Source: Candidatus Nomurabacteria bacterium (lineage in GTDB: Bacteria; Patescibacteriota; Minisyncoccia; Phycocordibacterales; UBA9973). Taken from it: DNA of 64,000 bases. The translations under genes were made by a program, and so were the position numbers. Under the pieces are notes generated by a model, which ran no database searches, was not told where the DNA came from, and saw only the letters and a list, made by a program, of their open reading frames with translations. The DNA lies in NCBI GenBank assembly GCA_021413905.1, contig JAIOPO010000005.1, forward strand, positions 2,027 through 66,026, given 5' to 3'. Position 1 is the stretch's first letter. Each line of letters starts with the position of its first letter. Below, piece after piece: positions 4,654 through 41,507 of the stretch.

Positions 4654-4690
4654 CGAAGGACTAGACACGAGTCCGAGAAGCGGCTCCAAA
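4654..4690 (+). other. Degenerate duplicate of the 3-prime end (T-arm plus acceptor 3-prime strand) of the adjacent tRNA-Thr
   Basis: CGAGTCCGAGAAGCGGCTCCAAA at 4668-4690 is an exact 23-nt copy of tRNA-Thr 4594-4616. An upstream CGAAGG also matches. No 5-prime half is present. Confidence 0.5.
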
Positions 4691-4692
4691 AT

Positions 4693-4726
4693 AAAATCCC
4701 TTAACCTAGGGATTTTATTGTTTTAA
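4693..4726. terminator. Bidirectional rho-independent terminator
   Basis: A 9-bp stem AAAATCCCT/AGGGATTTT with a 6-nt loop is flanked by T-runs on both strands. It sits between the tRNA-Thr region (+) and the convergent CDS ending at 4730 (-). Confidence 0.6.
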
Positions 4727-4729
4727 TTA

Positions 4730-5437
4730 TTATTTTTTAAACTCTTTAGAATCAGAAGTGTCTTTGTCTTTCGGTAAAAGTTTTATTATATCTGGATAAA
4801 GTTTTTCCACATCTTCAATACTCTTAAAACCTGTAACTTTTTTTTCATTTACAACCAAGGCTGGCAATTTTGTATCTTCTATTTTGTAAATTTTTATAAG
4901 CGCGCGCAAAGCTGAAAGATCTAAATTATAATCAAAAGAGTACACTCTCAACTCAGGATATTTTTCACGAAGTTCTGTCAGAACAAAACCTTGTTTGGTG
5001 CATTCAGTACAGTTTTCAGCTGTCGTATAAAAATACAAAATCGGCACAAATTTATTACCACAACGAGCATTTATTTTTTTAGTTAATAAATAATCTTTAA
5101 TTTCCAAAATAGTATAGTATCTTTTCAGTTCTGTAGCTGTGGCATTATCTTTAAAATTATTTTCACTATACTCTATCTTTTGAGCCATATCAGAAAGTTC
5201 CGCAGAAAGATTTTCTCCTCCGTCATTTTGTTCACAAGAAAGTTCTGACAATAAAGCAAATTGGGTTTCTGAAGACAAAATATCTGTCTCAAGTTTATCT
5301 TGAACTTGTCTCATTGATTGTATTTTTTGATTTGTAAAAAAATTACTCAAACCTCCAGCTAATGCAAAAAGACCGCAAGTCAAGAAAAAAACTATTATAT
5401 ATTTTAACCAATCATTTTTTTTATATTCTGTTTCCAT
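4730..5437 (-). CDS. Membrane-anchored thioredoxin-fold protein with a CxxC (CTEC) motif
   Basis: An N-terminal TM segment and a coiled region are followed by a C-terminal block around CTEC that resembles a glutaredoxin/thioredoxin fold. Confidence 0.5.
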   Translation of the reverse strand: METEYKKNDWLKYIIVFFLTCGLFALAGGLSNFFTNQKIQSMRQVQDKLETDILSSETQFALLSELSCEQNDGGENLSAELSDMAQKIEYSENNFKDNATATELKRYYTILEIKDYLLTKKINARCGNKFVPILYFYTTAENCTECTKQGFVLTELREKYPELRVYSFDYNLDLSALRALIKIYKIEDTKLPALVVNEKKVTGFKSIEDVEKLYPDIIKLLPKDKDTSDSKEFKK

Positions 5438-5442
5438 ATTTT

Positions 5443-6723: not shown

Positions 6724-6774
6724 TTATTTAAAATTACCTTTATATTATAACAGATTTTTAGTTAAAATGCAAAA

Positions 6775-6806
6775 CAGCCCCGCGCCTTTGGCGCGGGGCT
6801 GTTTTT
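6775..6806. terminator. Strong GC-rich rho-independent terminator
   Basis: A perfect 12-bp stem CAGCCCCGCGCC/GGCGCGGGGCTG with a TTT loop is followed by TTTTT. It lies downstream of the minus-strand CDS 6812-7111. Confidence 0.7.
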
Positions 6807-6811
6807 AAAAA

Positions 6812-7111
6812 TTACATTTTTCCTTCCATACTTGCAGGAGCATCTGTTCCACATGAAGAACAAGTTCCACCCATACATTTCTTGCACTTGCAACCAAAAA
6901 TACTCATAACAGCAGCAAGACCAACTAAAACATATACTAATGCCTCAAGCTTAGAAACAGAACCCAAAAGCATGTAAACAAGATTCCATTCCTTACCCAT
7001 AAACATACCTACCCCAACCAAACCCCAGTTTAAACCACCAACAATTACTAAAATTTTAGCAATTAAGGCTGGAACACAAGAACCACACTTACCACATTTT
7101 GAATTACACAT
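6812..7111 (-). CDS. DUF378-like small membrane protein with Cys-rich termini
   Basis: The central block LVIVGGLNWGLVGVGMF matches the DUF378 GxNWGLVG signature. The N-terminus carries CNSKCGKCGSC and the C-terminus carries CKCKKCMGGTCSSCG. Confidence 0.5.
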   Translation of the reverse strand: MCNSKCGKCGSCVPALIAKILVIVGGLNWGLVGVGMFMGKEWNLVYMLLGSVSKLEALVYVLVGLAAVMSIFGCKCKKCMGGTCSSCGTDAPASMEGKM

Positions 7112-7217
7112 ATTTTTTTATTTTGTTAAAAATTAAATTAATAATATTAATAAAGACCTTATGCATAAAGTATACCATATACATAAAAAATGATACAATA
7201 GACTTATTAACAATAAA

Positions 7218-7904
7218 GTGAATAACATGGAAAATAAACAAAAAATAAATACAATATTATCAGTATTTTTACTAATAGCTTTGATATTAATAGGTATATT
7301 TCTTTTAAAAGGAAAAACACCTATACCTAAAAATATAGTTAAGAACATCAAAAAAGAATTATTACCTGTATCAGATCAAGATTTTTCAACGGGAAACAAA
7401 GATGCTTTATTAACAATAGTAATGTATGAAGATTTTCAATGTCCTTTTTGTGGAAAATTTGATAAAGAAACAGAACAACCTATTAGAAATACTTATGTAA
7501 AAGATGGAAAAATCCAATTAGTATATAGAGATTTTGTTTTTTTAGGAGATGAATCAATAAAATCCGCGCAAGCAGCTAGATGCGCCGGAGAACAAGAAAA
7601 ATTTTGGGAATACCATGATTTCCTTTTTACTCATCAAAATGGAGAAAATAAAGGAGCTTTCGCTGATTCAAATTTAAAATCTTTTGCAAAAGAAATAGGT
7701 TTAAATGAAAAAAAATTCAATGATTGTCTTGATTCCGGAAAATACACTAAAGCTATATTAGACTCCACTGAAGAAGGTCATAATGCTGGAGTAAAAGGAA
7801 CACCAAAAGGTTTCATTTTAAAAAATGGAATTATTGTAGATACTATAAATGGAGCAGAAAACACAACAACAGTTTTTTCTAAAATTGAAAAAGCTTTAAA
7901 ATAA
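7218..7904 (+). CDS. DsbA-family thiol:disulfide oxidoreductase, membrane-anchored
   Basis: An N-terminal TM anchor is followed by a thioredoxin fold with the active site CPFC, in DsbA-like context (FQCPFCGKF). Confidence 0.65.
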   Translation: MNNMENKQKINTILSVFLLIALILIGIFLLKGKTPIPKNIVKNIKKELLPVSDQDFSTGNKDALLTIVMYEDFQCPFCGKFDKETEQPIRNTYVKDGKIQLVYRDFVFLGDESIKSAQAARCAGEQEKFWEYHDFLFTHQNGENKGAFADSNLKSFAKEIGLNEKKFNDCLDSGKYTKAILDSTEEGHNAGVKGTPKGFILKNGIIVDTINGAENTTTVFSKIEKALK

Positions 7905-7915
7905 TAAATAAATTA

Positions 7916-7946
7916 AAAACTCCACTAAAAAAGTGGAGTTTTTAAT
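7916..7946. terminator. Bidirectional rho-independent terminator between the convergent dsbA-like gene and rpoD
   Basis: A 10-bp stem AAAACTCCAC/GTGGAGTTTT with loop TAAAAAA, flanked by A/T runs. Confidence 0.6.
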
Positions 7947-9236
7947 TTAGTCAAAATAATTTCTTAATCTTGCTATTTTTTCATGTTGACGAAGCTTGTC
8001 ATGAACCTTGGCTTCAATTTGACGAATACGTTCGCGAGTAACGCCGAATTCTTCACCTACTCTCTCAAGAGTGTGTTGAATGCCGTCTGTCAGACCATAA
8101 CGCATTTCAAGAATCTTTTTCTCTTTTGGATTTAGTTCGTCGAGAACTTCACGAATTTGATCGGAAAGAATACGCTGTGAAGATTCTTGATCTGGACGTA
8201 AAATTTTATCATCAGGAATAAAATTTTCCAAAGTTGATTTATCATCATCATCTCCTACTGGCTGTTCAAGAGAAATAGTTTCTTGAGAAATATTTTCAAT
8301 CACATGGATTTTTTCAACCGGTATACCCATCTCTGTGGCTATCTCTTCAGCCAACGGCTCACGCCCTAAATCTTGTGAAAGCCTGCGGTGTGTTTGTTTA
8401 TATTTTGAAATTGTTTCCACCATATGCACAGGAATACGAATAGTGCGACTTTGGTCTGCTAATGCACGAGTGATGGATTGACGAATCCACCAAGTGGCAT
8501 AAGTAGAGAATTTATAGCCTTTTGTCCAATCAAATTTCTCAACTGCTTTGAAAAGTCCCAAATTCCCCTCTTGAATCAAATCAAGCAATGTCAGGTCTGC
8601 ACTTCTACCTACGTATTTTTTCGCAATAGAAACGACCAGACGCAAGTTTGCACGAGCAAGCAAATTCTTTGCTTCTTCATCTCCTTTTTCAATTCTTCGT
8701 GCTAAATCTTTTTCTTCACTTGCATGTATCAAAGCATATTGACCTATTTCTTTTAAATACATTTGAATAGAATCATGTAATGTTGATTTATTTATATCTC
8801 CAGTTAAATCAGCATCTAAATTCAAAAGGTTTCCGCCTTCTAATACATCAATACCAGCAACAGAAAATTGTTCATATAATTCATCTAAGAAAAGAATATT
8901 GTTTTCAATATCAGGAAATGTTTTTAGAATCTCATCGTAAGTAATAAAACCTCTTTTTCTTCCTTTTTCTATCAATTCTTTTGAAAGTCTTTCAAATTCT
9001 TGTGCTTTTTTCTGAGCCGCAGTTAATTTCACCACTGCTTCTTTTTTAATTTTTTCTTTTTTTACAACAACTTTTTTAACTTTCTTCACAGCATTAGGAG
9101 CTTTTTTTACAATTTTCTTTACTGTTTTTTTTACGATATTTTTTAAAACTTTTTTATTTGTTTTTTTTACAACTTTCGAAACCTTTTTCACTATTTTCTT
9201 TACTGTCTTTATTTTTTTAGTTTTATTTTTTTTCAT
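7947..9236 (-). CDS. rpoD: RNA polymerase sigma-70 factor RpoD with a lysine-rich N-terminal extension
   Basis: Region 2.x is [39 protein letters not shown], and regions 3 and 4 are present. The first roughly 65 aa are KK-repeat rich ([13 protein letters not shown]...). Confidence 0.9.
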
Positions 9237-18754: not shown

Positions 18755-18761
18755 AAAAAGA

Positions 18762-18792
18762 AAAAACGTGATATATTTATATCACGTTTTTT
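18762..18792. terminator. Hairpin/terminator between the KH-protein gene and trmD
   Basis: A 10-bp stem ACGTGATATA/TATATCACGT is flanked by an A-run and a T-run, so it is symmetric on both strands. Confidence 0.45.
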
Positions 18793-18804
18793 CTAAAATT
18801 TCAA

Positions 18805-19232: not shown

Positions 19233-19541
19233 TTATTTTTTAGTTTTAGCTTCTTTTCTTGAAACAGTAGGTTTCTTTTTTGGCAAAACATTTTTCTTTT
19301 TACCTTCGATGATTTTATTATGAACTAAAAAGTTGTGTAATGTATCTGTCAATTGAGCTCCTGTTGAAAGCAATTGAGTTATTCTTTCAGCATTAAAACT
19401 AGTAGTACCAGCTTTAGGATTATAAGTACCGACGATTTCTAAAAACTTACCACTCTTTGTGGAGTTCTTTGAATCAGTTAAAACAACACGAAAAGCCGGG
19501 TCGTTCTTTCTGCCTATTCTTTGTAATCTTATTTTTAACAT
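19233..19541 (-). CDS. rpsP: 30S ribosomal protein S16
   Basis: MLKIRLQRIGRKNDPAFRVVLTDSK is the conserved S16 N-terminus. A basic C-terminal tail follows. Confidence 0.85.
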   Translation of the reverse strand: MLKIRLQRIGRKNDPAFRVVLTDSKNSTKSGKFLEIVGTYNPKAGTTSFNAERITQLLSTGAQLTDTLHNFLVHNKIIEGKKKNVLPKKKPTVSRKEAKTKK

Positions 19542-19596
19542 TCATATAGTGTAGCATAATATATAAAAAACGCAAATAGTATGCTATATTAAAGGA

Positions 19597-21609
19597 ATGA
19601 AGACAGAAAACAAGCATTTGGAAGGAATTATATCAATAACATCAAAGGGCACAGGTTATGTGGCTATAAATGATGGTAAAAATCCTAGTCCAAAGAAAAA
19701 TGGTGAAGATCCGGAAATAGATTATAAACATCTTAATACTGCCCTGCACGGAGATACCGTGCAAATAATTCTCCACCCAAAAGGAAAAACAAGACAAACA
19801 GCCGAAGTTTCAAAAATAATCTCACGAGCCAAAAAAGGTTTTTCTGGCATTTTGGAAATGTCCGAGAATATGTATTTTTTAAAACCTGACGATGCAAAAA
19901 TGTATACAGATATTTTGATATCGGACAAAAATTTAAATGGAGCAAAAAATGGTGATAAGGTTTATGGAGAAATAATTTCATGGAAAGATTCTCGCAAAGC
20001 ACCCGAAGGAAATATAATAAAAGTTTTTGGACGCCCTGGAGACAATGATGTAGAAATGCATGCAATAGCACTGGAAAAAGGGTTCTCTGCCGAATTACCC
20101 GACAAGGTGGAACAAGAAGCAGATAATATAAAAAATTCTGGAATAAATGAAAAAGATTATGCAGACAGACGAGATTTTAGAAAAATTCTAACTTTCACTA
20201 TTGATCCTTCAGATGCAAAAGATTTTGATGATGCGATTTCGTTTCGTATTCTTCCCCCTCTCCTTAATAAGGAGAGGGGGCTAGGGGGTGAGGTGTATGA
20301 AATAGGTATACATATCGCTGATGTATCACACTATGTAAAAATCGGTTCTGCTCTAGATGAAGAAGCTAGAGAAAGAGGTACTTCGGTTTATTTAGTAGAT
20401 CGTACAATACCGATGTTGCCAGAAAATCTTTCAAATGATTTGTGTTCCCTTGTGCCAAATAAAGATCGTCTCACAATGAGTGCAGTATTCACAATTGATA
20501 AAAATGCAAAAGTCATAAATGAATGGTATGGGCGCACTGTGATACATTCTCAAAAAAGATTTACTTATGAAGAAGCAGAAATTTCTATAAATAAAGCAGA
20601 CGCGCCACTACACAAAGAACTTTTAATTTTGAATAATTTAGCAAAACAATTAACCAAAGAAAGATTTGCAAATGGCGCGATATCACTCGACCAAGAAGAA
20701 GTAAAATTCGTCTTGGATGAAAAAGGTGTGCCGATAAAAGTCATAAAAAAAGAACGCGGAGATTCAAACAGACTTATCGAAGAATTTATGCTTTTAGCAA
20801 ATAGAAAAGTAGCAGAAATAATGTCTCAACATGTAAATAAAAAAGGTGAAAAAATAAAAAACAATGAAAATGTATTTGTCTACAGAATTCACGACAAACC
20901 GACACCAGAAAAAACAGAAGACTTGGCATTTTTCTTGCGTAGTTTAGGATATAAAATTTCTCTAAAAGGCGGAGTGATTCCCTCTTATGAAATAAATAAA
21001 ATAATAAAAAGTTTGGAAAATAAAGCCGGCAAAGATGCAGTCCACAGAGCCATAATCCGCTCTATGGCAAAAGCAGTTTATTCAACTCAAAACATAGGAC
21101 ACTATGGTCTAGCATTTAAATATTACACTCATTTCACTTCCCCTATCAGACGTTATCCGGATATATTGGTACATCGCATGTTAATGGACTTTTTAAATAA
21201 TAAAAAAATTGGAAAAGATAAATTAAAAGAATTTGAAAATATTTCTCGCAAATCTTCTGAACAAGAAAAACGCGCTTCTGATGCAGAACGCGCTTCTATC
21301 AAATACAAACAAGTAGAATATATGTCTTCAAGAATCGGACAAACTTTTGAAGGTATTATCAGCGGTATTACCGAATGGGGCATGTATGTCGAAGAAATCG
21401 AAACAAAATGCGAAGGTATGATACGCGTCCGAGATCTGACAGATGATTTTTATATTTATAATGAAAAAAAATTAGAACTCTTGGGGCAAAAAAAGAAGAA
21501 AAGTTACAAGCTCGGTGATAAAGTAAAAATAAAAGTAAAAAATGTTGATTTAGAGAAAAAAACAATTGACTATATATTAAATGAACCTAAAACTTCATCC
21601 AAAAATTAA
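19597..21609 (+). CDS. rnr: Ribonuclease R / RNase II-family 3-prime to 5-prime exoribonuclease
   Basis: The RNB catalytic motifs are present (DPSDAKDFDDAIS, GIHIADVSHYV), together with N-terminal cold-shock-like domains and a C-terminal S1 domain with a K-rich tail. Confidence 0.85.
   Translation: MKTENKHLEGIISITSKGTGYVAINDGKNPSPKKNGEDPEIDYKHLNTALHGDTVQIILHPKGKTRQTAEVSKIISRAKKGFSGILEMSENMYFLKPDDAKMYTDILISDKNLNGAKNGDKVYGEIISWKDSRKAPEGNIIKVFGRPGDNDVEMHAIALEKGFSAELPDKVEQEADNIKNSGINEKDYADRRDFRKILTFTIDPSDAKDFDDAISFRILPPLLNKERGLGGEVYEIGIHIADVSHYVKIGSALDEEARERGTSVYLVDRTIPMLPENLSNDLCSLVPNKDRLTMSAVFTIDKNAKVINEWYGRTVIHSQKRFTYEEAEISINKADAPLHKELLILNNLAKQLTKERFANGAISLDQEEVKFVLDEKGVPIKVIKKERGDSNRLIEEFMLLANRKVAEIMSQHVNKKGEKIKNNENVFVYRIHDKPTPEKTEDLAFFLRSLGYKISLKGGVIPSYEINKIIKSLENKAGKDAVHRAIIRSMAKAVYSTQNIGHYGLAFKYYTHFTSPIRRYPDILVHRMLMDFLNNKKIGKDKLKEFENISRKSSEQEKRASDAERASIKYKQVEYMSSRIGQTFEGIISGITEWGMYVEEIETKCEGMIRVRDLTDDFYIYNEKKLELLGQKKKKSYKLGDKVKIKVKNVDLEKKTIDYILNEPKTSSKN
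20254..20280. repeat. 27-bp perfect GC-rich palindrome in-frame inside rnr
   Basis: CCCCCTCTCCTTA-A-TAAGGAGAGGGGG has 13-bp arms and a 1-nt spacer, followed by CTAGGGGGTGAGG. It encodes PPLLNKERGLGG, which lies between the two conserved RNB motifs, a segment that is usually shorter. Confidence 0.8.
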
Positions 21610-23461
21610 ATATTTGCTCTGGCTTTGCATTGCATTTAGCGTGGGTATTTCATCTGCTTTTTTTATCACAAAAGCGATAGGATATTATAAAATAGATAGC
21701 AAGACAGCATATCAAAATGTAGAAAATACAAACACTATAACAGAGGACAATACACCAAAGAATTTTTATTTTATAAAAGATCCAAATCAAAAACCAAAAA
21801 TCTCAGCAAATGCATATGTCGTCGGTGATTTGGATACAGGTGAAATAATTTTAGAAAAAAATGAAAATGACATCTTTCCTATTGCTTCCGTTTCCAAACT
21901 CATGACGAGTTTGATAGGCACCGAATTATCAAAAGATGAAGATATTGCACAAGTCACCAAAAATGCGCTCGCGACTTATGGCAAAAATGGTGAATTGCAT
22001 TTAGGAGAAAAAATAAAAGTAAATGAACTTTTTTATCCACTATTAATGGAATCTTCAAATGATGCAGCTGAAGTTATAGCCGAATATTTCAATCGTGATT
22101 CTTTTATTTCCAAAATGAATCTAGAAGCAAAAAAACTTGAAATGAATGCTACTTCTTTCGAAGACCCTAGCGGTCTATCACCAAACAATAAATCAACAGC
22201 ATTGGATTTGTTTAAACTTTCAGGATATTTAGTAAAAAATAAAGAAAATATTTTGGAAATAACCAAAAAGAAAAGTTACTTGAATGCGAAACACAATTGG
22301 TTCAGCACAAATCAATTCTTGCGAGAAGAAGGATATCTCGGAGGTAAAAGCGGATATACAGACTTGGCAAAACAAACAGGCATTTCCCTCTTCTCAATCC
22401 CTTTAGGAGAATCTGGAACCAGACATATTGCAATAACACTTCTGCAAACTCCAGACCGTTACAAAGATGCAAAAAGTCTTTTAACTTATTTGCGTAAAAA
22501 TGTTTATTATGGAGGTGAAGATGATGCAAATACTGCCTGGGTGAAAGAAAAAGAAGGACTGCCAGACATTGAAGAAAAAGATTTTGTCACACTTGCATTT
22601 GTCGGAGACATAATGCTCGACCGTGGAGTTAGAAGCTCTGTAAACAAAAATTTCAACGGAGATTATTCTGCTCTTTTTGACAATTTAGATATTTTGAAAA
22701 ATTATGATATTTCTTTTGCAAATCTTGAAGGCCCAGCATCAGACCAAGGAAAAGATATGCATAATCTATATTCCTTTGAAATGGATCCTTCTGCTATACC
22801 AGCTATTAAAGGTGCCGGTTTTGATATTTTGTCAGTCGCCAATAATCACGTCGGTGACTATGGACGAGATGCATACATTGATACTCTTGCAAGATTAAAA
22901 GAAAATGAAATTCTTTATGCGGGAGGAGGTAACAATTCCACAGAAGCCGAACAACCGACAATAATAGAAAAATACGGAATGAAAATCGGCTATTTAGCAT
23001 TTTCTGACAAAGGCCCGGACTGGATGCAAGCCACATCTGAAAAAGCCGGACTCCTTTTGGCTAACAATCCGCGTTTTGATGAGATAATTTCAAATGCTTC
23101 TAAACAAGTAGACTATCTCATAGTATCATTTCACTTCGGCGAAGAATACCAAACAAAGCATAACGATAGACAAGCGTATCTCGCACACAAAGCCATAGAT
23201 GCCGGCGCGAAAATAATCATCGGCGCACATCCGCACGTAGTGGAAGATACCGAAGTTTACAAAAAAGGATTCATCGCTTATTCCCTGGGCAACTTTATTT
23301 TTGACCAAAAGTTTTCAGAAAACACAATGCAAGGAATGTTGCTAGAACTCAAACTAAACCGTGACGGATCAATATCTGCAAAGAAAAATATAATAAAATT
23401 AGATTCTGTCTTTCAACCCCAAAAACCTATTTTAGGTAAAGAAGAAAAAGTGAAGTTTTAG
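21581..23461 (+). CDS. Fusion protein of an N-terminal D-alanyl-D-alanine carboxypeptidase (S11, PBP5-like) and a C-terminal CapA/PgsA-like metallophosphatase domain
   Basis: The N-terminal half carries SxxK (SVSKLM), SxN (ESSNDAAE) and KTG-like (GKSGYT) motifs after a signal/TM anchor. The C-terminal half carries CapA-type blocks (AFVGDIMLDRG, ANLEGP, SVANNHVGDYG, GAHPHVV). The start overlaps the rnr 3-prime end by 29 nt. Confidence 0.7.
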   Translation: MNLKLHPKIKYLLWLCIAFSVGISSAFFITKAIGYYKIDSKTAYQNVENTNTITEDNTPKNFYFIKDPNQKPKISANAYVVGDLDTGEIILEKNENDIFPIASVSKLMTSLIGTELSKDEDIAQVTKNALATYGKNGELHLGEKIKVNELFYPLLMESSNDAAEVIAEYFNRDSFISKMNLEAKKLEMNATSFEDPSGLSPNNKSTALDLFKLSGYLVKNKENILEITKKKSYLNAKHNWFSTNQFLREEGYLGGKSGYTDLAKQTGISLFSIPLGESGTRHIAITLLQTPDRYKDAKSLLTYLRKNVYYGGEDDANTAWVKEKEGLPDIEEKDFVTLAFVGDIMLDRGVRSSVNKNFNGDYSALFDNLDILKNYDISFANLEGPASDQGKDMHNLYSFEMDPSAIPAIKGAGFDILSVANNHVGDYGRDAYIDTLARLKENEILYAGGGNNSTEAEQPTIIEKYGMKIGYLAFSDKGPDWMQATSEKAGLLLANNPRFDEIISNASKQVDYLIVSFHFGEEYQTKHNDRQAYLAHKAIDAGAKIIIGAHPHVVEDTEVYKKGFIAYSLGNFIFDQKFSENTMQGMLLELKLNRDGSISAKKNIIKLDSVFQPQKPILGKEEKVKF

Positions 23462-27772: not shown

Positions 27773-29017
27773 ATGGAAGAAAATAAAGATAAAGATCATA
27801 AAAAAATAGGCCGAGAAATGGAACTTTTCACTTTTAGTGATTCTGTAGGTAAAGGTTTACCTATTTGGTTACCAAAAGGCGCTACCGTGCGCAGAGAACT
27901 TGAACGTTTTATAGTGGACGAAGAAATTCGCCGTGGATATCTACACGTACGTACTCCTGATATTGCCAAGCTTGATTTATATAAAAAATCCGGACATTAT
28001 CCACATTACCAAGATTCCATGTATGCTCCTATTGTTATCGATGACGAAGAATTTATGCTTCGCCCAATGACTTGTCCACATCATTTTGAATTGTATTTAC
28101 ACAAACCTCATAGCTATCGCGAGCTACCTATGCGCATAGCCGAACTCGCACAACTCTACAGATATGAACAGTCCGGAGAACTTATGGGCCTACAAAGAGT
28201 TCGTACTTTTTGTTTAGCAGATGCACATATAATATGTAAAGATGAAACACAAGCTATAGAAGAAATCGGCAATGCTTTAGACCTGATTGAATACGTCACT
28301 TCAGTTTTTAATTTAAAACTTGATGTTGATTACAGATATCGTCTATCATTAGGAGACAGAGATAATCACGAAAAATATTATAAAAATGATGAAGCTTGGG
28401 AAAAAGGCGAAGACTTGATGCGCAAACTTATGCAAAAAAGAGGTTCTAAATTTGAAGAAGCCAAAGATGAAGCCGCTTTTTACGGACCAAAAATAGATAT
28501 TCAAATGAAAAATGTAAACGGTAAAGAAGATACTGCATTCACAGTACAATATGATTTTTGTATGCCAAAAAGATTTGAATTAAAATATATGGGCGAAGAC
28601 GGTAATGAACATCAAGCTTTTGTTGTTCACCGTTCATCTATAGGCGCAATTGAAAGAATAATGGCATTCCTAATAGAAAAATACGCCGGTGCATTCCCTC
28701 TTTGGCTTTCCCCTACTCAAGTCGCAATTGTTCCTGTGCGAGAAAACCACGAAGAAGAAGCAGAAAAGATAAATCAATTGTTAAAAAATAATTCAATCAG
28801 AGTGCAAATTTTACACTCAGGAGATTCTATTGGCAAAAGAATCAATCACGCAAAAGCTGAAAAAATACCTTATGTAATAGTTCTAGGAGACAAAGAAATG
28901 TCTGCAAACACTCTCACAGTGGAAAAACGCGACGGAACAAAAATAGAAAATATTTCACCTGTTGATTTTCTAAAAGAATTGCAAGAGAAAATAAATTCTA
29001 AATCTTTGGAGTTATAA
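27773..29017 (+). CDS. thrS: Threonyl-tRNA synthetase, catalytic core plus anticodon-binding domain only (no TGS or editing domains)
   Basis: DHKKIGREMELFTF...GLPIWLPKGA and class II motifs are present. The 414-aa length is well below the roughly 640 aa of canonical ThrRS, and only 34 bp of upstream intergenic sequence is available. Confidence 0.85.
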   Translation: MEENKDKDHKKIGREMELFTFSDSVGKGLPIWLPKGATVRRELERFIVDEEIRRGYLHVRTPDIAKLDLYKKSGHYPHYQDSMYAPIVIDDEEFMLRPMTCPHHFELYLHKPHSYRELPMRIAELAQLYRYEQSGELMGLQRVRTFCLADAHIICKDETQAIEEIGNALDLIEYVTSVFNLKLDVDYRYRLSLGDRDNHEKYYKNDEAWEKGEDLMRKLMQKRGSKFEEAKDEAAFYGPKIDIQMKNVNGKEDTAFTVQYDFCMPKRFELKYMGEDGNEHQAFVVHRSSIGAIERIMAFLIEKYAGAFPLWLSPTQVAIVPVRENHEEEAEKINQLLKNNSIRVQILHSGDSIGKRINHAKAEKIPYVIVLGDKEMSANTLTVEKRDGTKIENISPVDFLKELQEKINSKSLEL

Positions 29018-29026
29018 TATTTAAAT

Positions 29027-29053
29027 AAAAAATCCCCGTATGGGGATTTTTTA
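29027..29053. terminator. Bidirectional rho-independent terminator between convergent thrS and gyrB
   Basis: A 10-bp stem AAAAATCCCC/GGGGATTTTT with loop GTAT is flanked by A and T runs. Confidence 0.65.
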
Positions 29054-29054
29054 T

Positions 29055-32995
<3,941 letters not shown>

Positions 32996-33003
32996 AAATT
33001 TAT

Positions 33004-33990
33004 TTATTGTGAAACATTGGTCGGTGCGACCATGTGTTTCAAAACATTATAACATTTATTTTTATTTTTAATAGCTTCATTTTGACATAATTCCGGTGAA
33101 TTATAGACCAATTCATTATGAAAATTATAATAACGAATAAGCCCCTCAAAACAAGCATCAACATTTTTAAATACAAAACAATAATTTTCCCCTTCTTTTT
33201 CTTGTGTAATATGATGCTTCATAAAACCAACTCCGGAACCAACAATGCAACTTACTCTCAAGGAAGAAGAAGTTATGGATTCACATTTTTTAATATTATC
33301 CAAAGATTCCGTAGACATTTTATACCTTGGAGCATAAAAATAACAATTATTATTATAAGGAGTTTTAAAAGTGGAACAAAAATCAAATGCATCTTCAAAA
33401 TGCGTAATTACTTTATTTATACCAGTATTCTCATCATCAAAAATATGCATAAAAACACCATCGTAACAATTTGACCTTTGAGATTTTTCTTTATAAGAAT
33501 CACAAAAACTTAAAGATTTTTTAACATCGCCGTTCAAAGCAAACATGAGACCATGTCCAACTCCATGGAAACAACGATTTAAATTAGCGGGTAAACATAC
33601 TGAATTTAATTCATTCAATAATTGATCTTCTTTCAGAAAACCAAACTTTTCTTCTATAACTCCATGAATATATCCTGCCCCACAAACATCATCTTCATAA
33701 GACATCGCGCCAGAGAAACCATATTTCAAATAAGCATGATGTCCTATTTCATGAGCTACACCATGACAAGAATTTGCAAGACTTTCATCTGAAATAATTT
33801 CTTCTCTCAATATTGCAAGCACTTGACTGGGTGTCTTTTTGTCTAACATTTGCATTAACTCTTCGCGAGAATAATGTGGCAAAGTTTTTTGTTCTTTTTT
33901 AATATTTAAATAAAAATAAATAGAGAAAATAAAAAACAATACAGCAAAAATAACCAGTGTTTTTCGAATAAGACCTGGTGATATTTTCAT
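33004..33990 (-). CDS. Membrane-anchored Cys/His-repeat protein containing an HExxH motif, encoded between pheS and pheT
   Basis: An N-terminal TM segment is followed by about six repeats of C-x(9-12)-C-x-G-x-x-H (CHGVAHEIGHH, CGAGYIHGV, CFHGVGHGLM, CYDGVFMHI...). HEIGH resembles a zinc-metallopeptidase motif, but the family is not recognised. Confidence 0.45.
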   Translation of the reverse strand: MKISPGLIRKTLVIFAVLFFIFSIYFYLNIKKEQKTLPHYSREELMQMLDKKTPSQVLAILREEIISDESLANSCHGVAHEIGHHAYLKYGFSGAMSYEDDVCGAGYIHGVIEEKFGFLKEDQLLNELNSVCLPANLNRCFHGVGHGLMFALNGDVKKSLSFCDSYKEKSQRSNCYDGVFMHIFDDENTGINKVITHFEDAFDFCSTFKTPYNNNCYFYAPRYKMSTESLDNIKKCESITSSSLRVSCIVGSGVGFMKHHITQEKEGENYCFVFKNVDACFEGLIRYYNFHNELVYNSPELCQNEAIKNKNKCYNVLKHMVAPTNVSQ

Positions 33991-37603: not shown

Positions 37604-40597
37604 CTATTTATAAATCTCTGCGCGTTTGCAATACTCGCATTTGGTATTTTTGCCATACGAATTATAATTACAAGGGCGAGCAATCCATTCTCCATTTTTT
37701 AGGAGATTGTCATAGTCGGCAATGTCTTTAATTAACAAATCTATTTTTTCTCTGTCTATGTGTGTAGAATAAAGAGCATTTTTGTCATCTTTTTTTGCTT
37801 CAAGGAAAAGAAGTTTGGAAGCGTATACATCTTTGCCTTTTTCTGCACCCGCGACGAGATACGAATACATCACAAGCTGACGCATCAATGTGGAAAGCCT
37901 GCCTTCTTCATCTATTTTTTCAATCACGCCTTTTGTTTTCACACTGCCGGTTTTAAAATCAGTCACCGTAATATCACCATTTGAATTTCTTTCTGTTAAG
38001 TCCAACTTTCCATACATCAAAAGCTCCGGGAATTTCGGATCTCTAAATTGCAAAGACCTTTCAGACATATAATCTTTCGCTAAAGTTTCGTAATAATTTT
38101 CCACCCAATGCATTACAGCATTTTCTGCATCTTTTGCCAGTTTTTTTAATTCTGTTTCATTACTGACTCCTTCTTTTTCCAATTCACTTTTTATTTTTTC
38201 TTTTATCTCAGCACTTTTCGGTAAAGTTTCGTTTTTCAAAATAAATTCTATCGCAGAGTGCACAGCAGAACCGAGACCAAGCGAAGTACTTTTGACTTCC
38301 GGCAATTTCAAAAAATTCCTAAAATACCATTTCCAAGGACATTCAAAAAAGTTATTCAATAATGACACAGATACTTTACTCTCATGATAATTCTCTCGCA
38401 CAAAAGTTTTTATATCTTCTAAAATATCCCCTTCCTCGCGTTGCATTACTTTCGTATATATTTGCGGTCCGTGTGTCAAAATTTCTTTTTGTGTTTCTTC
38501 ACGAGTTTTTTTATTAAAATGATTCTCGGGTAATTCTCGAATAATTTGCGCAAGCTCCATCGTCCCACCTGTGTAATTCTCATTCGCATATGAAATATTA
38601 CAAAATTCTTTCGCGCGAGTTATGGCTACATACAGCTCCCTTTTCACGGACTCAATATCTTTCTCTGCTATATGCATTTTCACTTTTTCAGGTAGAGTAA
38701 AACCATTTTTCTTTTCAGACATTATTACCTCTTCATTCATATGCGCTATCCAGACGGCTTTGTATTCCAAGCCTTTTGATTTGTGCAAAGTCATCACTTG
38801 CACGCCACTTTTCGTGCCAAAAGATGCCAAAGAAATATGACTGCCGTAACTTTCCAAACGTCTGAAATATTCTAAAAATTCTGCTAAACTTTTATTTTTA
38901 TCCCCGCCTCCTCGGCGGGCAGGCTTCTGCTCAAAAAGCATTGCAATATGTATGAAACTCCGCACGACTTCCACATTGCGTATCAATTCTTCGTGAGTTT
39001 TGGATTCATCAATTAAAAATTCATTGCCGACAGTGCTGACTATTACAGAAAGTTTTTCATTGGAAAGAGTATCTATCCAATTTTTCAATTTACCGCCCCA
39101 CTTTGAAATTGCGTTTTCTCCGGCGAAAAGTCCACCATCTTTGCCTTCGCCTATCAAATCTTCAATATTTAATTTATCCGGCTTTAATGATTTTAAAAAT
39201 TTATGCGCGGAAAAAGTTTCAATACCGCTGTATTTATCCAGTAATGATTCTGAAAGAGGAATGCTGTTATATGGATGAGCGATAATATTTAAAATTCGCA
39301 ACAAGCTTTGTGTTTCTGAAACATCAAATAAAGATAAATTTTTCCCAGCAGAAACAGGCACACCCATATTGTGCAATATTTCTATGGCATTTCTTACGTG
39401 ATAGTTTTTCGGCACGAGTATTGCGCAATCTTCGGGCTTTACCCCTTTATCAATTAAATTTTTGAAATATAAACCTGCGCCCAAAATCTCATCTCTCTGA
39501 TATGCATATTCACTCAAATATATTTTCTCACTACCATTTATATTACTTTTTAATTTTTCATTTGAAATAGAACTCTTCAATAAATCATCTGCCAAATCCA
39601 AAATATTTTGCGTAGAACGATAATTCTCAGTAAGTGTGATTTGTTTTGCTTTGCCAAATGTATGTGCAAATTCTTCAAAATATGACATCGATGCTCCAGA
39701 GAATCCGTAAATGAGTTGCCTGTCATCCCCCACTACAAAAATATTTGGCTTTTCTTCGTCTTTCCAGACAGCTTTCAAGAAATTATTTTGCACCCCACTG
39801 GAGTCTTGATGTTCATCTACCAACACATATTGATAATTTTCTTTTATATCTGAGCGTATGTCTTCATAATCTTCCACGAGTCTGACTGTGTATTCCAAAA
39901 TATCATCATAATCCATAAAGCCTTCCGTGACTTTTTTTTCTTCATACATTCGATAAAATTCCACGACTTCGCGCGTGCGTTCGAGAGATTCTATTTTGTT
40001 TTTTATTTCTTTTTTGAGTTGTCCTTTACTTTCTCCTCTTGAAGAAATACTATCGGGATCATTTTTTAAATTCTCAATATCCGCTTCGACATAAGACAAA
40101 AATTCCTCCGGTGTCAGCCTTTCTCTTTTTAATATTGAAATCAAATGTTTCAAATCGGAAAAATACATTACCGGATTTGCTCGCGGACGCAGATGCTCCC
40201 ATTCATTGTTTTGCAAAATATCGTCCACTAAAAATACCGCTTCATCATCAGAAAGCAATTTCGGCATTATTTTAAAACCAATATTTTCATAATTCTTCTC
40301 AATCAAATTTATGCCAAAACTATGAAATGTGGAAATGTGCACTTTGTCGGCATCATTGCCTATGTATTCCGCCAAGCGACTTTTCATCGCCTTCACGCCG
40401 GAATTTGTAAAAGTCAGACACAAAATACTGTCTGCTGTGGTATCCGTCTCCTTCAAAATATTCGCAATCCTCAAAGCCAAAATCTGCGTCTTGCCCGTGC
40501 CCGGACCAGCGACAACCATCACCGGACCATCAAGCGTATCCACTGCTTCTTTTTGTTCTTTATTTAATTTTTTATATTCTTCGTTAAATTTTTGCAT
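37604..40597 (-). CDS. UvrD/PcrA-like SF1 DNA helicase fused to a C-terminal PD-(D/E)XK nuclease with a Cas4/AddB-type 4-Cys cluster
   Basis: Walker A is VVAGPGTGKTQILALR, with UvrD motifs (TFHSFG, VLVDEHQDSS, VVGDDRQLIYGF). The C-terminus shows ECPWKWY ... D-x-D-x-K (YGKLDLTE...VTDFKTG) ... CNYNSYGKNTKCEYC. Confidence 0.8.
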   Translation of the reverse strand: MQKFNEEYKKLNKEQKEAVDTLDGPVMVVAGPGTGKTQILALRIANILKETDTTADSILCLTFTNSGVKAMKSRLAEYIGNDADKVHISTFHSFGINLIEKNYENIGFKIMPKLLSDDEAVFLVDDILQNNEWEHLRPRANPVMYFSDLKHLISILKRERLTPEEFLSYVEADIENLKNDPDSISSRGESKGQLKKEIKNKIESLERTREVVEFYRMYEEKKVTEGFMDYDDILEYTVRLVEDYEDIRSDIKENYQYVLVDEHQDSSGVQNNFLKAVWKDEEKPNIFVVGDDRQLIYGFSGASMSYFEEFAHTFGKAKQITLTENYRSTQNILDLADDLLKSSISNEKLKSNINGSEKIYLSEYAYQRDEILGAGLYFKNLIDKGVKPEDCAILVPKNYHVRNAIEILHNMGVPVSAGKNLSLFDVSETQSLLRILNIIAHPYNSIPLSESLLDKYSGIETFSAHKFLKSLKPDKLNIEDLIGEGKDGGLFAGENAISKWGGKLKNWIDTLSNEKLSVIVSTVGNEFLIDESKTHEELIRNVEVVRSFIHIAMLFEQKPARRGGGDKNKSLAEFLEYFRRLESYGSHISLASFGTKSGVQVMTLHKSKGLEYKAVWIAHMNEEVIMSEKKNGFTLPEKVKMHIAEKDIESVKRELYVAITRAKEFCNISYANENYTGGTMELAQIIRELPENHFNKKTREETQKEILTHGPQIYTKVMQREEGDILEDIKTFVRENYHESKVSVSLLNNFFECPWKWYFRNFLKLPEVKSTSLGLGSAVHSAIEFILKNETLPKSAEIKEKIKSELEKEGVSNETELKKLAKDAENAVMHWVENYYETLAKDYMSERSLQFRDPKFPELLMYGKLDLTERNSNGDITVTDFKTGSVKTKGVIEKIDEEGRLSTLMRQLVMYSYLVAGAEKGKDVYASKLLFLEAKKDDKNALYSTHIDREKIDLLIKDIADYDNLLKNGEWIARPCNYNSYGKNTKCEYCKRAEIYK
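38900..38926. repeat. GC-rich 27-nt hairpin-forming element, copy B, in-frame in the helicase-nuclease gene
   Basis: ATCCCCGCCTCCTCGGCGGGCAGGCTT encodes KPARRGGGD. CCCGCC/GGCGGG can pair. Similarity extends into the GCTTTTTGA flank, for about 45 nt in total. Confidence 0.65.
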
Positions 40598-41507
40598 TAT
40601 TTTTTATCATCACTTTAGACTTCCAAAAGAAAAATCCGATAATTGAAATAGTCAAAAGTGGAGAAATGTATTCAGGGACTTCGTGCCCGAAGCTTTGGAG
40701 GATCATAATAATACCCAAAACTAAAATGGAATACATCGCGCCATTTTTGAGATAAACATATTTTTTAATATTTTCAATATTGCCCATCGTGAGCTTGCGG
40801 ACAAGATACGCTCCCAAGCCATTGCCGAGCAAAATCAAAGGCACGGAAAGAGTAAAAGCAAATGCACCCAAAACACTGTCTATGGAAAAAGTGGCATCAA
40901 TGATTTCCAAGAAAAATAATTTACTTAAATCAGAACTAGCAGAACTCTTGAGTTCTTTTTCAGACTCTTCTGCGTTTTGTTTGAAACCGTGCGTGATAAA
41001 AAACAAAGTCGAGCCAACAACTGCACCGAAGCCCATCATACTGCTTTGTTTCAAAGCAAACCATGCAATGAAAGCGAGAACGACGGAAACTATCGCATAA
41101 AACCACACGCCTTTTTTCATAAAAAATCTTTCAGGATTTGGCAAGCCAAAATGTTTCTCTTCCAAGAAAAGCCAATGTAAAAATAAAAATAAAAGAAATA
41201 CTCCTCCAGCGACGAGGAGTATCGGCGCAGATTTTACAATTGATTCGTGGACAATAGGGTCAGAAGACCAAGCAGCGGAAAGGACTTGCATAATGCTGAG
41301 CGATGGATTAAAAGCCCAGACAATACAAAATGGCAATACTCCACGGACGACAACAACTGCAAGTAAAAATCCCCAGAGCAGGAACCAACGCTTTGCCTTG
41401 GCGCTCATTGTGGACAATACTTCAGCATTTATAACCGCATTGTCCAAAGACGAAATGGACTCAAAAACCGCAAGTCCAACTATTGTAAATAAAGCTGTGA
41501 ATAACAT
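40584..41507 (-). CDS. Integral membrane protein, TerC/DUF475-like
   Basis: Multi-TM protein; the N-terminal ESISSLDNAVINAEV resembles the TerC-family SxDN motif. Weak assignment. Confidence 0.4.
   Translation of the reverse strand: MLFTALFTIVGLAVFESISSLDNAVINAEVLSTMSAKAKRWFLLWGFLLAVVVVRGVLPFCIVWAFNPSLSIMQVLSAAWSSDPIVHESIVKSAPILLVAGGVFLLFLFLHWLFLEEKHFGLPNPERFFMKKGVWFYAIVSVVLAFIAWFALKQSSMMGFGAVVGSTLFFITHGFKQNAEESEKELKSSASSDLSKLFFLEIIDATFSIDSVLGAFAFTLSVPLILLGNGLGAYLVRKLTMGNIENIKKYVYLKNGAMYSILVLGIIMILQSFGHEVPEYISPLLTISIIGFFFWKSKVMIKNNAKI

What the first reader, a model, noticed from the sequence alone, without database searches (positions are those of the whole stretch)
20254..20293. Perfect 27-bp GC-rich palindrome embedded in-frame in the RNase R catalytic domain
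CCCCCTCTCCTTA-A-TAAGGAGAGGGGG has 13-bp arms. Chance expectation in 64 kb is about 0.001 per spacer length. It is followed by CTAGGGGGTGAGG. It sits between the two most conserved RNB motifs (DxxDFDDAIS and GIHIADVSHYV) and encodes PPLLNKERGLGG, lengthening a loop that is normally about 8-12 aa. It may be an in-frame inserted palindromic element, a ribosome-pausing or regulatory mRNA hairpin inside an exoribonuclease gene (possible autoregulation), or a recombination site.
Basis: seen in the sequence. Interest (0 to 1): 0.55.

Follow-up and report, generated by a model that had tools for sequence, protein, structure and literature searches.

The report
Triplex-type GC-rich repeat inside RNase R
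The palindrome is an in-frame copy of a tiny GC-rich repeat (hairpin plus a mirror-image G-rich tail, the BoxC/PIT "intrastrand triplex" type) that is scattered across many phyla and phages and has repeatedly settled in one tolerant surface loop of RNase R in Nomurabacteria; it is not an RNase R-specific control element.

Summary
A perfect 13+1+13 palindrome lies at 20254-20280, followed by CTA-GGGGGTGAGGTG, in frame in an RNase R gene of a Candidatus Nomurabacteria (CPR) genome. It lengthens a loop that is 9 aa in 78 of 80 distant homologues.

The unit has three parts: a pyrimidine arm, a purine arm, and a third G-rich block that mirrors the purine arm with A changed to T. This is the architecture of the known BoxC/PIT/TMECO intrastrand-triplex repeats (Holder 2015). 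These are cyanobacteria, Chloroflexota, Bacteroidota, Ignavibacteria, Armatimonadota and 15 CPR, plus 2 bins labelled Bathyarchaeia. The hairpin alone occurs in 68 viral contigs. Copies are intergenic or in frame in unrelated genes.

Among 120 RNase R orthologues, 59 have the short loop and 61 carry diverse GC-rich inserts at this site. The 14 carriers of this exact type are scattered on the gene tree. They keep 72/78 identical codons in the element, against about 52% elsewhere in the gene. A filled/empty pair shows a clean insertion of about 60 nt at another site.

Verdict: a selfish or mobile mini-repeat tolerated at a β-hairpin tip. It is a new variant (coding, CPR, recurrent hot spot) of a known kind. 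How it spreads is unknown.

The parts
19597..21609 (+). Host gene: ribonuclease R (670 aa; CSD2/OB, RNB 191-534, S1)
   Evidence: ORF list and Pfam. It is 100% identical to a protein named ribonuclease R [Candidatus Nomurabacteria bacterium]. Best solved relative is B. subtilis RNase R 8cdu, E = 7e-120.
20254..20295 (+). Whole repeat element (42 nt = codons 220-233, PPLLNKERGLGGEV), in frame
   Evidence: It is nearly identical in the orthologues L001, L271 and L272, whose flanks are saturated at synonymous sites.
20248..20253 (+). ATTCTT, a pyrimidine-rich extension 5' of the arm (codons I218 L219). It is conserved as ATT CTY in all four type-A carriers and may be part of the element.
   Evidence: Many Dehalococcoidia and phage copies have (A)TCTTCC in the same place. 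The element boundary is not resolved.
20254..20265 (+). Pyrimidine (Y) arm CCCCCTCTCCTT
   Evidence: 12-bp stem.
20266..20268 (+). Hairpin loop AAT. This is the variable part: GGT in L001, AAC in L002, GAT in L275.
20269..20280 (+). Purine (R) arm AAGGAGAGGGGG, Watson-Crick partner of the Y arm
20281..20283 (+). Spacer CTA (TTA in L272; GCG with a shorter arm in type B)
20284..20295 (+). Third block GGGGGTGAGGTG. It is the mirror image of the R arm with A changed to T/A: 11 of 12 positions fit G*G, T*A or A*A triads of an antiparallel purine-motif triplex.
   Evidence: 11/12, and the only window 21-mers reaching that score were 25 of 200,000 sampled, about the number expected to overlap the element itself. 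The tail accompanies the hairpin in 40 of 66 distinct viral copies found with a hairpin-only pattern. Hairpins with other arm sequences carry correspondingly changed third blocks.

Best explanation
The palindrome is one copy of a small, dispersed, GC-rich DNA repeat. Its unit is a pyrimidine arm, a loop, a complementary purine arm, a short spacer, and a third G-rich block that mirrors the purine arm. This is the architecture of the BoxC / PIT / 'TMECO' potential intrastrand-triplex repeats.

The copy landed in frame at the tip of a β-hairpin between RNB motifs I and II of RNase R. Extra residues are tolerated there, and the copy is translated as a roughly 10-residue, probably disordered, loop extension.

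Shown here:
- It is an insertion relative to the ancestral 9-aa loop.
- The same element exists at non-homologous sites in related and unrelated genomes and in phage contigs.
- The RNase R loop has been occupied many times by this and related GC-rich elements.
- The element is conserved at the nucleotide level, not the protein level.
- All three blocks co-vary across variants.

Inferred:
- The element is selfish or mobile DNA. It is copied into new sites by an unknown process that depends on the folded single-stranded DNA. The reasoning is that the mirror-repeat rule fits only a DNA purine-motif triplex, which according to Holder et al. cannot form in RNA.
- Selection then removes every copy in an essential gene except in-frame, stop-free ones in permissive loops.
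- The mRNA hairpin and the extra peptide are by-products, not a device that regulates RNase R.
For: Insertion and permissive site:
- The loop is 9 aa in 78/80 distant homologues and 59/120 close ones.
- 8cdu aligns with a 10-aa gap at this point.
- The AF2 model has strands 213-219 and 233-241 flanking a coil, with pLDDT < 50 at 224-228.
- At least 20 different insert sequences, adding 3-28 residues, occur at this one site.

Dispersed family:
I tallied the record titles by hand: 51 cyanobacteria, 17 Chloroflexota, 15 CPR, 13 Bacteroidota, 9 Ignavibacteria/Chlorobi, 6 Armatimonadota, 2 Bathyarchaeia, 4 other bacteria and 3 unclassified.
- The hairpin alone was found in 68 viral contigs. My rough estimate of the chance expectation is below 1.

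Other sites in Nomurabacteria and Paceibacterota:
- L001 10247-10267, a second site in RNase R.
- L274 21401-21423.
- L275 1570-1592, intergenic.
- L075, in a Dus-like ORF (my reading of the sequence) of the genome that encodes P0012.
- L178, in the genome that encodes P0014.
- Clean filled/empty pair: L275 against L276, about 60 nt inserted in AT-rich intergenic DNA.

Lability at the RNase R loop:
- Type-A carriers are not clustered: within-type distance 0.236 against 0.217 overall.
- On 100 bootstrap NJ trees, type A needs at least 8 state changes (median 10), and insert versus short loop needs at least 25.

Nucleotide-level constraint:
- 72/78 identical codons in the element against about 52% in the rest of the gene, in pairs with 76-82% aa identity.
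- Differences fall in the loop and spacer.

Three-way covariation:
- Type C has CCTCCTTA / TAAGGAGG / GGGGGTGGT.
- Among 66 other Y/R hairpin orientations, 47% have a third block scoring at least 7/8, against 4.5% for the control side.

Published family: Holder et al. 2015, PMC4666352.
Against: - There is only one copy in this 64-kb window, and density in related loci is low: 3 other copies in about 339 kb.
- No mobilising enzyme was identified.
- At the RNase R site the filled allele (L275) and empty allele (L276) do not differ by a simple insertion. About 9 nt are replaced, 3 nt are added, and GGTGAG is shared.
- P0120 (short loop) is closer to three type-B carriers (5.7-9% aa divergence) than to any other sequence, so some short loops may be losses or conversions.
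- The gene tree is star-like and built from the same gene, so the counts of independent events are rough.
- Triplex formation has only been shown for single-stranded oligonucleotides of the E. coli relative, not in vivo (Holder 2015).
- Strong nucleotide conservation could also reflect a selected function of the hairpin in this gene.
Confidence: 0.8

Rival explanations
1. There was one ancient insertion in the ancestor of this Nomurabacteria clade. It was inherited vertically and kept unchanged by purifying selection on the DNA or RNA structure, with many later losses, replacements and decay. The element is no longer mobile here.
For: - Some carriers do cluster: P0014, P0025, P0045, P0067, P0076 and P0108 are mutual near neighbours.
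- Type D is one tight clade, needing 1 change.
- Types A, B and C look like a graded series in the same orientation and frame.
- P0120 (short loop) has three type-B carriers among its closest relatives, which suggests loss.
- No transposase was found.
Against: - Short loops match the deep ancestral consensus (xxLxNGxYE), so they are not deletion scars.
- Type A needs at least 8 changes on every bootstrap tree.
- Unrelated insert families (composite reverse-oriented type D, the DPRHGGAS type and others) occupy the same loop.
- A clean recent insertion of the same family is seen in L275 against L276.
- Identical elements lie at other sites in the same genomes.
Confidence: 0.15
2. The hairpin is a regulatory device of the RNase R mRNA (ribosome pausing, protection from or feedback by the exoribonuclease), or the extra peptide is a functional loop of the enzyme.
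For: - The hairpin is very stable: -32.6 kcal/mol, z = -4.1.
- It is conserved at synonymous sites.
- RNase R acts on structured RNA (general knowledge).
- The RNase R gene carries small inserts at several sites.
Against: - 59 of 120 close orthologues and 78 of 80 distant ones have no insert.
- Different insert sequences and both orientations are used at the site.
- The same element is intergenic, in phage contigs, and inside ORFs that I read from their sequences (no domain search run) as Dus, FemAB-like, UvrD, ELP3-like and aminopeptidase genes.
- The third block obeys a rule that has no RNA-pairing meaning.
- No Rfam family matches, and the site is not terminator-like.
Confidence: 0.05
3. 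The palindrome was generated locally (template switching or hairpin-primed synthesis), or it is an assembly artefact, and is unrelated to any repeat family.
For: It is a single copy in the window. Palindromes can arise by strand switching.
Against: - The same 42 nt appear in independent assemblies from ENA, NCBI and JGI, with differences only in the loop and spacer.
- Hundreds of copies with the same arms and tail occur elsewhere.
- The reading frame is intact in all assemblies.
Confidence: 0.01

Closest known systems
BoxC / PIT elements / TMECO intrastrand triplex motifs (Bachellier 1990s; Hoyne & Maher 2000; Holder et al. 2015, PMC4666352)
   Same: - The three-block architecture is the same: C/T arm, 3-6 nt loop, G/A arm, 3-nt spacer, then a G-rich third block with T in place of A. 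Compare E. coli CCCTCTCCC-TGT-GGGAGAGGG-CCG-GGGTGAGGG with CCCCCTCTCCTT-AAT-AAGGAGAGGGGG-CTA-GGGGGTGAGGTG here.
- Stems are conserved and loops vary.
- Inverted 'palindromic' composites occur.
- Presence and absence is patchy between close relatives.
- No known function or transposase.
   Different: - The arm sequence and register differ, so the strict TMECO consensus is not matched.
- The host is a CPR bacterium with 33% GC.
- The copy is inside a coding sequence, in frame. TMECO is 'always located intergenically' in E. coli.
- Relatives of this variant are on phage contigs, whereas TMECO was not found on phages or plasmids.
- The same codon position has been colonised repeatedly.
Rickettsia palindromic elements, RPE (Ogata et al. 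2000; reviewed in PMC3184786)
   Same: Both are palindromic repeats inserted in frame into protein-coding genes, including essential ones. They are translated as extra surface segments and interpreted as selfish DNA filtered by selection.
   Different: RPEs are about 105-146 bp, restricted to Rickettsia, with unrelated sequence and no triplex-type third block. This element is 42-60 nt and is shared across phyla.
Small dispersed repeats (SDR) of Nostocales (Elhai et al. 2008, Genome Res 18:1484). Cited from memory and from the reference list of PMC3116915; the paper could not be read.
   Same: Both are very small (21-27 nt) hairpin-type repeats, judged mobile from filled/empty comparisons. They are sometimes inside genes or nested in each other. 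Nostocales are the richest source of the present element in the genome scan.
   Different: Whether any SDR family equals this sequence could not be checked. SDRs were described only in heterocystous cyanobacteria.
REP / REPIN elements mobilised by RAYT (Y1/HUH) transposases
   Same: Both are short GC-rich hairpins, dispersed and non-autonomous, and are thought to move as folded single strands.
   Different: - There is no GTAG/CGTC tag at the hairpin foot.
- REPs are extragenic by definition.
- The Y1_Tnp genes seen in two related loci are flanked by a different palindrome (CTAGGCAAGGCCTAG), not by this element.
GC clusters and 'byp' elements of yeast mitochondria (own knowledge: var1 GC clusters; Lang et al. 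2014 on Magnusiomyces)
   Same: Both are mobile GC-rich palindromic mini-inserts in coding regions of AT-rich genomes.
   Different: Byp elements are skipped by translational bypassing and need not keep the frame. Here all 61 insert-bearing orthologues keep the frame and lack stop codons, so ordinary translation suffices.

Membership tests
Intrastrand triplex motif repeats (ITxF class II, G/C-rich; Holder 2015) | Three consecutive blocks (pyrimidine arm, complementary purine arm, third G-rich block), with stems of 6-15 nt, at most 1 mismatch, and loops of 1-6 nt | tested here: met
   The blocks are 12 nt / loop 3 / 12 nt / spacer 3 / 12 nt. Watson-Crick pairing is 12/12. The third block fits 11/12 triads. 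The criteria are quoted.
Intrastrand triplex motif repeats (ITxF class II, G/C-rich; Holder 2015) | The third block co-varies with the duplex arms (mirror repeat, A changed to T or A) | tested here: met
   Type C orthologues change all three blocks together. Among 66 hairpin orientations with other arms in L071-L190, 47% score at least 7/8 on the downstream side, against 4.5% for the control.
Intrastrand triplex motif repeats (ITxF class II, G/C-rich; Holder 2015) | Actually folds into a triplex (CD/NMR of the single strand) | not testable with these tools
   This has only been shown for the E. coli TMECO oligonucleotide in vitro, and was not detected in vivo.
TMECO / BoxC sensu stricto | Consensus CCCTCNCCC N3-6 GGGNGAGGG N3 GGGNGAGGG | tested here: not met
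   The arms here are CCCCCTCTCCTT / AAGGAGAGGGGG. The purine arm lacks GGGNGAGGG, and the third block holds GGGTGAGG followed by T, not G, so it also fails GGGNGAGGG. It is a sibling variant, not TMECO itself.
TMECO / BoxC sensu stricto | Intergenic location | tested here: not met
   The element is in frame in RNase R. TMECO is 'always located intergenically'.
Dispersed or mobile mini-repeat (general) | Multiple near-identical copies at non-homologous sites | tested here: met
   There are at least 120 genome loci and 68 viral loci, and other sites in Nomurabacteria loci. There is only one copy in this window.
Dispersed or mobile mini-repeat (general) | Filled and empty sites in close relatives | tested here: met
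   L275 against L276: about 60 nt present or absent in otherwise alignable intergenic DNA. The RNase R loop is filled in P0028 and empty in P0120 at 5.7% aa divergence, but that junction is not clean.
Dispersed or mobile mini-repeat (general) | Target-site duplication or a known mobilising enzyme | tested here: inconclusive
   A possible AAT duplication is seen in one case. No recurrent neighbouring gene across phyla was found. Y1_Tnp genes are not associated with the element.
Rickettsia palindromic elements (RPE) | In-frame palindromic insert in a protein-coding gene | tested here: met
Rickettsia palindromic elements (RPE) | Length of 105-146 bp and RPE sequence families of Rickettsia | tested here: not met
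   The element is 42 nt in a CPR host. RPE sizes are taken from PMC3184786.
REP/REPIN-RAYT | GTAG/CGTC tag at the hairpin foot, with flanking of or association with a RAYT gene | tested here: not met
   There is no tag. There is no Y1_Tnp homologue in the window. The two homologues in L271 and L274 are not next to the element, and the L271 gene is flanked by a different palindrome.
Gene-specific regulatory mRNA hairpin | Conserved in orthologues and confined to that gene | tested here: not met
   It is absent from 59/120 close and 78/80 distant orthologues, and present in unrelated contexts. There is no Rfam match.
Intrinsic terminator | GC-rich hairpin followed by a T run | tested here: not met
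   The hairpin is followed by CTAGGGGGTGAGGTGTATGAA. No terminator-like site was found in 19900-20700.

The most novel reading that the evidence does not exclude
CPR bacteria such as Nomurabacteria are being colonised, repeatedly and at the same permissive codon positions of essential genes, by several families of ultra-small (about 21-60 nt) GC-rich hairpin or triplex elements. They share these elements almost base for base with cyanobacteria, Chloroflexota, Bacteroidota and phages. This would imply an active, cross-phylum, enzyme-unknown insertion process that recognises or proceeds through a folded single-stranded DNA triplex. The RNase R loop would then be a natural series of filled, empty and re-filled sites from which that mechanism could be read.
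Probability: 0.35. Interest if true: 0.75.

Novelty: new variant of a known kind. Interest (0 to 1): 0.55.

Why it matters
BoxC/PIT/TM repeats have been known for about 30 years without a function or a mechanism of spread, and were described as strictly intergenic.

This case adds four things:
- A sibling variant is shared nearly base for base across distant phyla and phages.
- It can live inside essential genes as translated sequence.
- All three of its blocks co-vary as a DNA triplex would require.
- One codon position of RNase R has been hit many times.

That gives a comparative handle on insertion and loss: filled and empty alleles, junctions, and the order of events.

There are practical consequences too. 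Such inserts inflate apparent protein divergence in CPR genomes. They create spurious 'conserved' peptides such as PLLxKERGxGGEV and PSPYxGEG. They can also mislead alignments and gene calling.

Tried and rejected
- **Rfam** scan of 19500-21700 at E <= 1: nothing.
- **Terminator and promoter scan:** not terminator-like.
- **RAYT/Y1 transposase as mobiliser.** Y1_Tnp genes sit near RNase R in L271 and L274, but there is none in the window or in other loci. The L271 gene is flanked by a different palindrome. Rejected as unsupported.
- **Search for a recurrent neighbouring gene.** All-against-all BLAST of 2596 ORFs from the 188 pattern-hit loci gave only phage structural-gene clusters (capsid, portal, terminase by inspection) and lineage-specific genes. 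No candidate enzyme emerged.
- **Internal start codon.** The tail GGTGAGGTGTATG looks like a Shine-Dalgarno sequence plus ATG, but the ATG is out of frame and too close. Rejected.
- **Translational bypassing or intein-like removal.** Unnecessary, because all insert-bearing orthologues keep the frame without stops.
- **DNA uptake sequence.** Copy density is far too low and the distribution crosses phyla.
- **Viral scan for the second hairpin family** (GCCTGCCCG...GGCGGGGA). It gave 106 hits, nearly all in GC-rich contigs and consistent with chance. Uninformative.
- **Elhai 2008** could not be retrieved, so identity with any SDR family is untested.
These were useful for the ancestral loop length but not for close filled/empty pairs.
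Full report

Window 20254-20280 reads CCCCCTCTCCTTA-A-TAAGGAGAGGGGG, a perfect palindrome with 13-nt arms. It is followed by CTA and GGGGGTGAGGTG. It is unique in the window. None of 100 dinucleotide-preserving shuffles gives a match, and the 8-mers GGGTGAGG, GGAGAGGG and CCCTCTCC occur nowhere else in the 64 kb. As RNA the region folds at -32.6 kcal/mol (z = -4.1). As single-stranded DNA it folds at -13.8 kcal/mol (z = -5.0). The window is AT-rich (about 33% GC), so the 42 nt stand out in composition.

**Host gene and site**

The element lies in frame in ORF 19597..21609 (+), a 670-aa ribonuclease R with CSD2, RNB (residues 191-534) and S1 domains. The protein is identical to one named ribonuclease R of a Candidatus Nomurabacteria bacterium, a CPR/Patescibacteria lineage. 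Codons 220-233 encode PPLLNKERGLGGEV, between DFDDAISF (motif I) and IGIHIADV (motif II).

In 78 of 80 homologues of 44-74% identity the segment between these motifs is exactly 9 residues, with consensus xxLxNGxYE. B. subtilis RNase R (8cdu) aligns with a 10-residue gap at this point. An AlphaFold2 model built on 120 orthologues puts β-strands at 213-219 and 233-241, with a low-confidence coil between them (pLDDT < 50 at 224-228). So the insert extends the tip of a β-hairpin.

**What the element is**

The tail is not incidental. The purine arm is AAGGAGAGGGGG. The tail GGGGGTGAGGTG is its mirror image with A replaced by T or A (11 of 12 positions). A full-text search for the tail sequence led to Holder et al. 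2015 (PMC4666352). That paper describes 'TMECO', the BoxC repeats of the 1990s and the PIT elements of Hoyne and Maher. The consensus is CCCTCNCCC N3-6 GGGNGAGGG N3 GGGNGAGGG, and 23 copies are listed for E. coli K-12. One example is CCCTCTCCCTGTGGGAGAGGGCCGGGGTGAGGGC.

According to the paper, as a single strand the motif folds into a purine-motif (G*G·C, T*A·T) intrastrand triplex in vitro, but no triplex was detected in vivo. It has no promoter or terminator activity, is always intergenic in E. coli, was not found on phages or plasmids, and is associated with local sequence instability.

The window element has the same three-block plan with different arm sequences. It meets the general criteria of that class but not the strict TMECO consensus.

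**The family is widespread**

A scan of viral contigs with the hairpin alone (CCCTCTCCTT N1-8 AAGGAGAGGG) found 68 loci. In 40 of 66 distinct copies, GGGTGAGG lies a few bases downstream, or its complement lies upstream.

I tallied the record titles by hand:

| Group | Loci |
|---|---|
| Cyanobacteria (mostly Nostocales) | 51 |
| Chloroflexota | 17 |
| CPR | 15 |
| Bacteroidota | 13 |
| Ignavibacteria/Chlorobi | 9 |
| Armatimonadota | 6 |
| Bathyarchaeia | 2 |
| Other bacteria | 4 |
| Unclassified | 3 |

Binning errors cannot be excluded for the rarer labels.

Many copies are composites. In these, ACCTCACCCC plus a tiny hairpin precede the pyrimidine arm, so the tail also has a Watson-Crick partner. 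This matches the 'inverted tandem' TMECOs of E. coli.

Hairpins with other arm sequences in these loci carry correspondingly different third blocks. Examples are GGGGAAGG followed by GGGGATGGGG, and AGGAGGGG followed by GGGGTGGT. Of such orientations, 47% score at least 7/8 under the mirror rule, against 4.5% on the control side. A parallel-complement relation of this kind has no Watson-Crick meaning. It is what a DNA purine-motif triplex requires.

**Behaviour in Nomurabacteria**

Among the 120 closest RNase R orthologues (70-78% identity), 59 have the short loop and 61 carry inserts:

| Type | Insert | Orthologues |
|---|---|---|
| A (this one) | PPLLxKERGLGGE | 14 |
| B, a shorter form | PLLxKERAGGE | 8 |
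| C | PSLNKEGxGGG | 9 |
| D, a reverse-oriented composite | PRPSGTPPSQGE | 7 |
| E | DPRHGGAS-like | 8 |
| Other GC-rich inserts | up to 37 loop residues | 15 |

DNA from four type-A carriers is identical across the three blocks. The one exception inside a block is an A-to-G change at the loop-proximal base of the purine arm in L271. All other differences lie in the loop, the spacer and the last base, while neighbouring synonymous sites differ freely. Over the element, 72 of 78 comparable codons are identical, against about 52% in the rest of the gene. Type C changes all three blocks together: CCTCCTTA / TAAGGAGG / GGGGGTGGT.

Type-A carriers are not each other's relatives. Their within-type distance is 0.236 against 0.217 overall, and their nearest neighbours often have short loops. 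Parsimony on 100 bootstrap NJ trees needs at least 8 changes for type A and at least 25 for insert versus short loop. These counts are rough, because the tree is star-like and made from the same gene.

Other copies of the family lie elsewhere in these genomes:
- a composite at a second site in RNase R (L001 10247-10267, peptide PDLRPPSPVRRGAG);
- one copy at L274 21401-21423;
- one intergenic copy at L275 1570-1592;
- one in a Dus-like ORF (L075, my reading of the sequence; genome that encodes P0012);
- one in L178 (genome that encodes P0014).

Other CPR copies sit in frame in ORFs that I read from their sequences (no domain search run) as FemAB-like, UvrD, ELP3-like and intein-containing proteins, and at the 3' end of an aminopeptidase-like ORF.

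L275 and L276 have RNase R proteins 5.7% apart. Between them the intergenic composite of about 60 nt is cleanly present or absent in AT-rich DNA, possibly with an AAT duplication. L276 also has the empty RNase R loop.

**Interpretation**

The simplest reading is that this is a selfish, non-autonomous repeat. It enters new sites and survives in essential genes only where it is in frame, free of stop codons, and in a permissive loop. The three-block covariation points to a step that depends on folded single-stranded DNA, but that step and the enzyme are unknown.

The RNase R junctions are not simple. Between L275 and L276 about 9 nt are replaced, 3 nt are added and GGTGAG is shared. A copy-in or conversion process using microhomology, or later remodelling, cannot be told apart.

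A gene-specific regulatory role is unlikely, for four reasons:
- half of the close orthologues and nearly all distant ones lack the insert;
- different inserts and orientations are tolerated at the site;
- the same element occurs in unrelated contexts;
- nothing matches Rfam or a terminator pattern.

**Comparison and novelty**

Functionally, the closest analogues are the Rickettsia palindromic elements, which are in-frame selfish DNA but 105-146 bp and lineage-restricted. Also close are the small dispersed repeats of Nostocales (Elhai 2008, which could not be read) and the GC clusters of yeast mitochondria (own knowledge). Structurally the element belongs with BoxC/PIT/TMECO.

I found no description in the searched literature of the following:
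- this sibling variant and its cross-phylum and phage distribution;
- its presence in CPR genomes;
- its in-frame life inside essential genes;
- a recurrent hot spot at a single codon position.

I therefore rate it a new variant of a known kind, of moderate interest.

Noticed in passing
window 31283-31303 (- strand), in ORF 31154..33046: A second kind of GC-rich mini-hairpin (AAGCCTGCCCGTCCAGAAGGCGGGGAT) lies in frame in PheT (Pfam B3_4, B5, FDX-ACB). It adds 7 residues (PARPEGG) that the orthologue in L278 lacks: [11 protein letters not shown].
   Followed up: yes
window 38897-38933 (- strand), in ORF 37607..40603: A near-identical copy of that second hairpin (AAGCCTGCCCGCCGAGGAGGCGGGGAT, peptide KPARRGGGD) lies in frame in a UvrD/AddA-like helicase-nuclease. 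No close orthologue was at hand to prove it is an insertion. A viral-contig scan for this family was uninformative.
   Followed up: partly
L001 10233-10290 (RNase R of P0002, after residue 89 of the window protein): A full composite of the same family (ACCTCACCC-GACCTTCGGCC-A-CCCTCTCCT-GTC-AGGAGAGGG-GCT-GGGGGTGAGGT) is inserted in frame at a second site of RNase R. Twelve of 120 orthologues have small inserts at this site.
   Followed up: partly
Alignment A1, sites after residues 89 and 233 of the window protein: The peptide PAKDGAS/PAKDGTK (DNA GACCCCGCCAAAGACGGGGC, a CCCCG...CGGGG hairpin) occurs at two different sites of RNase R in different orthologues. P0116 has it at both. This looks like a further mini-element family.
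   Followed up: partly
L075 host ORF 4465-5523 (Dus-like, my reading of the sequence) and RNase R of P0051: The peptide RPTERSFGR occurs both in a Nomurabacteria Dus-like ORF and as an insert after residue 30 of another RNase R orthologue. This suggests yet another shared mini-insert. The DNA was not compared.
   Followed up: no
L275 1490-1720 versus L276 9245-9420: This is a clean filled/empty pair for the roughly 60-nt composite element in AT-rich intergenic DNA between the S16 gene and the next gene. An AAT duplication at the junctions is possible.
   Followed up: yes
L271 6772-7434 and L274 15035-15772: Y1_Tnp (IS200/RAYT-like) genes lie near RNase R in two relatives. The L271 gene is flanked on both sides by the palindrome CTAGGCAAGGCCTAG, like a REP-RAYT unit. 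This is unrelated to the triplex-type element and absent from the window.
   Followed up: partly
L148 (Kerfeldbacteria), ORF 3-8000 (- strand): A giant repetitive protein appears to contain two paralogous intein-like segments. Each has a different variant of the element (TLSLSRRGEGEV and SQPLLTKERSGEV) just after the CVTGDTKL...RRRRRK stretch.
   Followed up: no
L079, L081, L082, L084, L099, L106, L111, L115, L117, L126, L130-L132, L162, L184, L187 and viral L008, L021, L043, L058, L060, L067: Dehalococcoidia copies and a set of phage contigs (capsid/portal/terminase-like ORFs by inspection) share longer conserved flanks around the element: GCCCCTCTTC...ATCTCTTCC upstream and AGATAAACA downstream. 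In some phage copies the tail is followed by ATG at Shine-Dalgarno-like spacing. The element is probably part of a larger conserved unit there.
   Followed up: no
window 29017-29062, 7909-7949, 18759-18794, 6771-6805, 41643-41676, 48986-49020: Perfect 15-21-bp inverted repeats with short loops, some followed by a T run. They look like ordinary intrinsic terminators. Positions relative to genes were checked only for 6771-6805, and they are unrelated to the finding.
   Followed up: no
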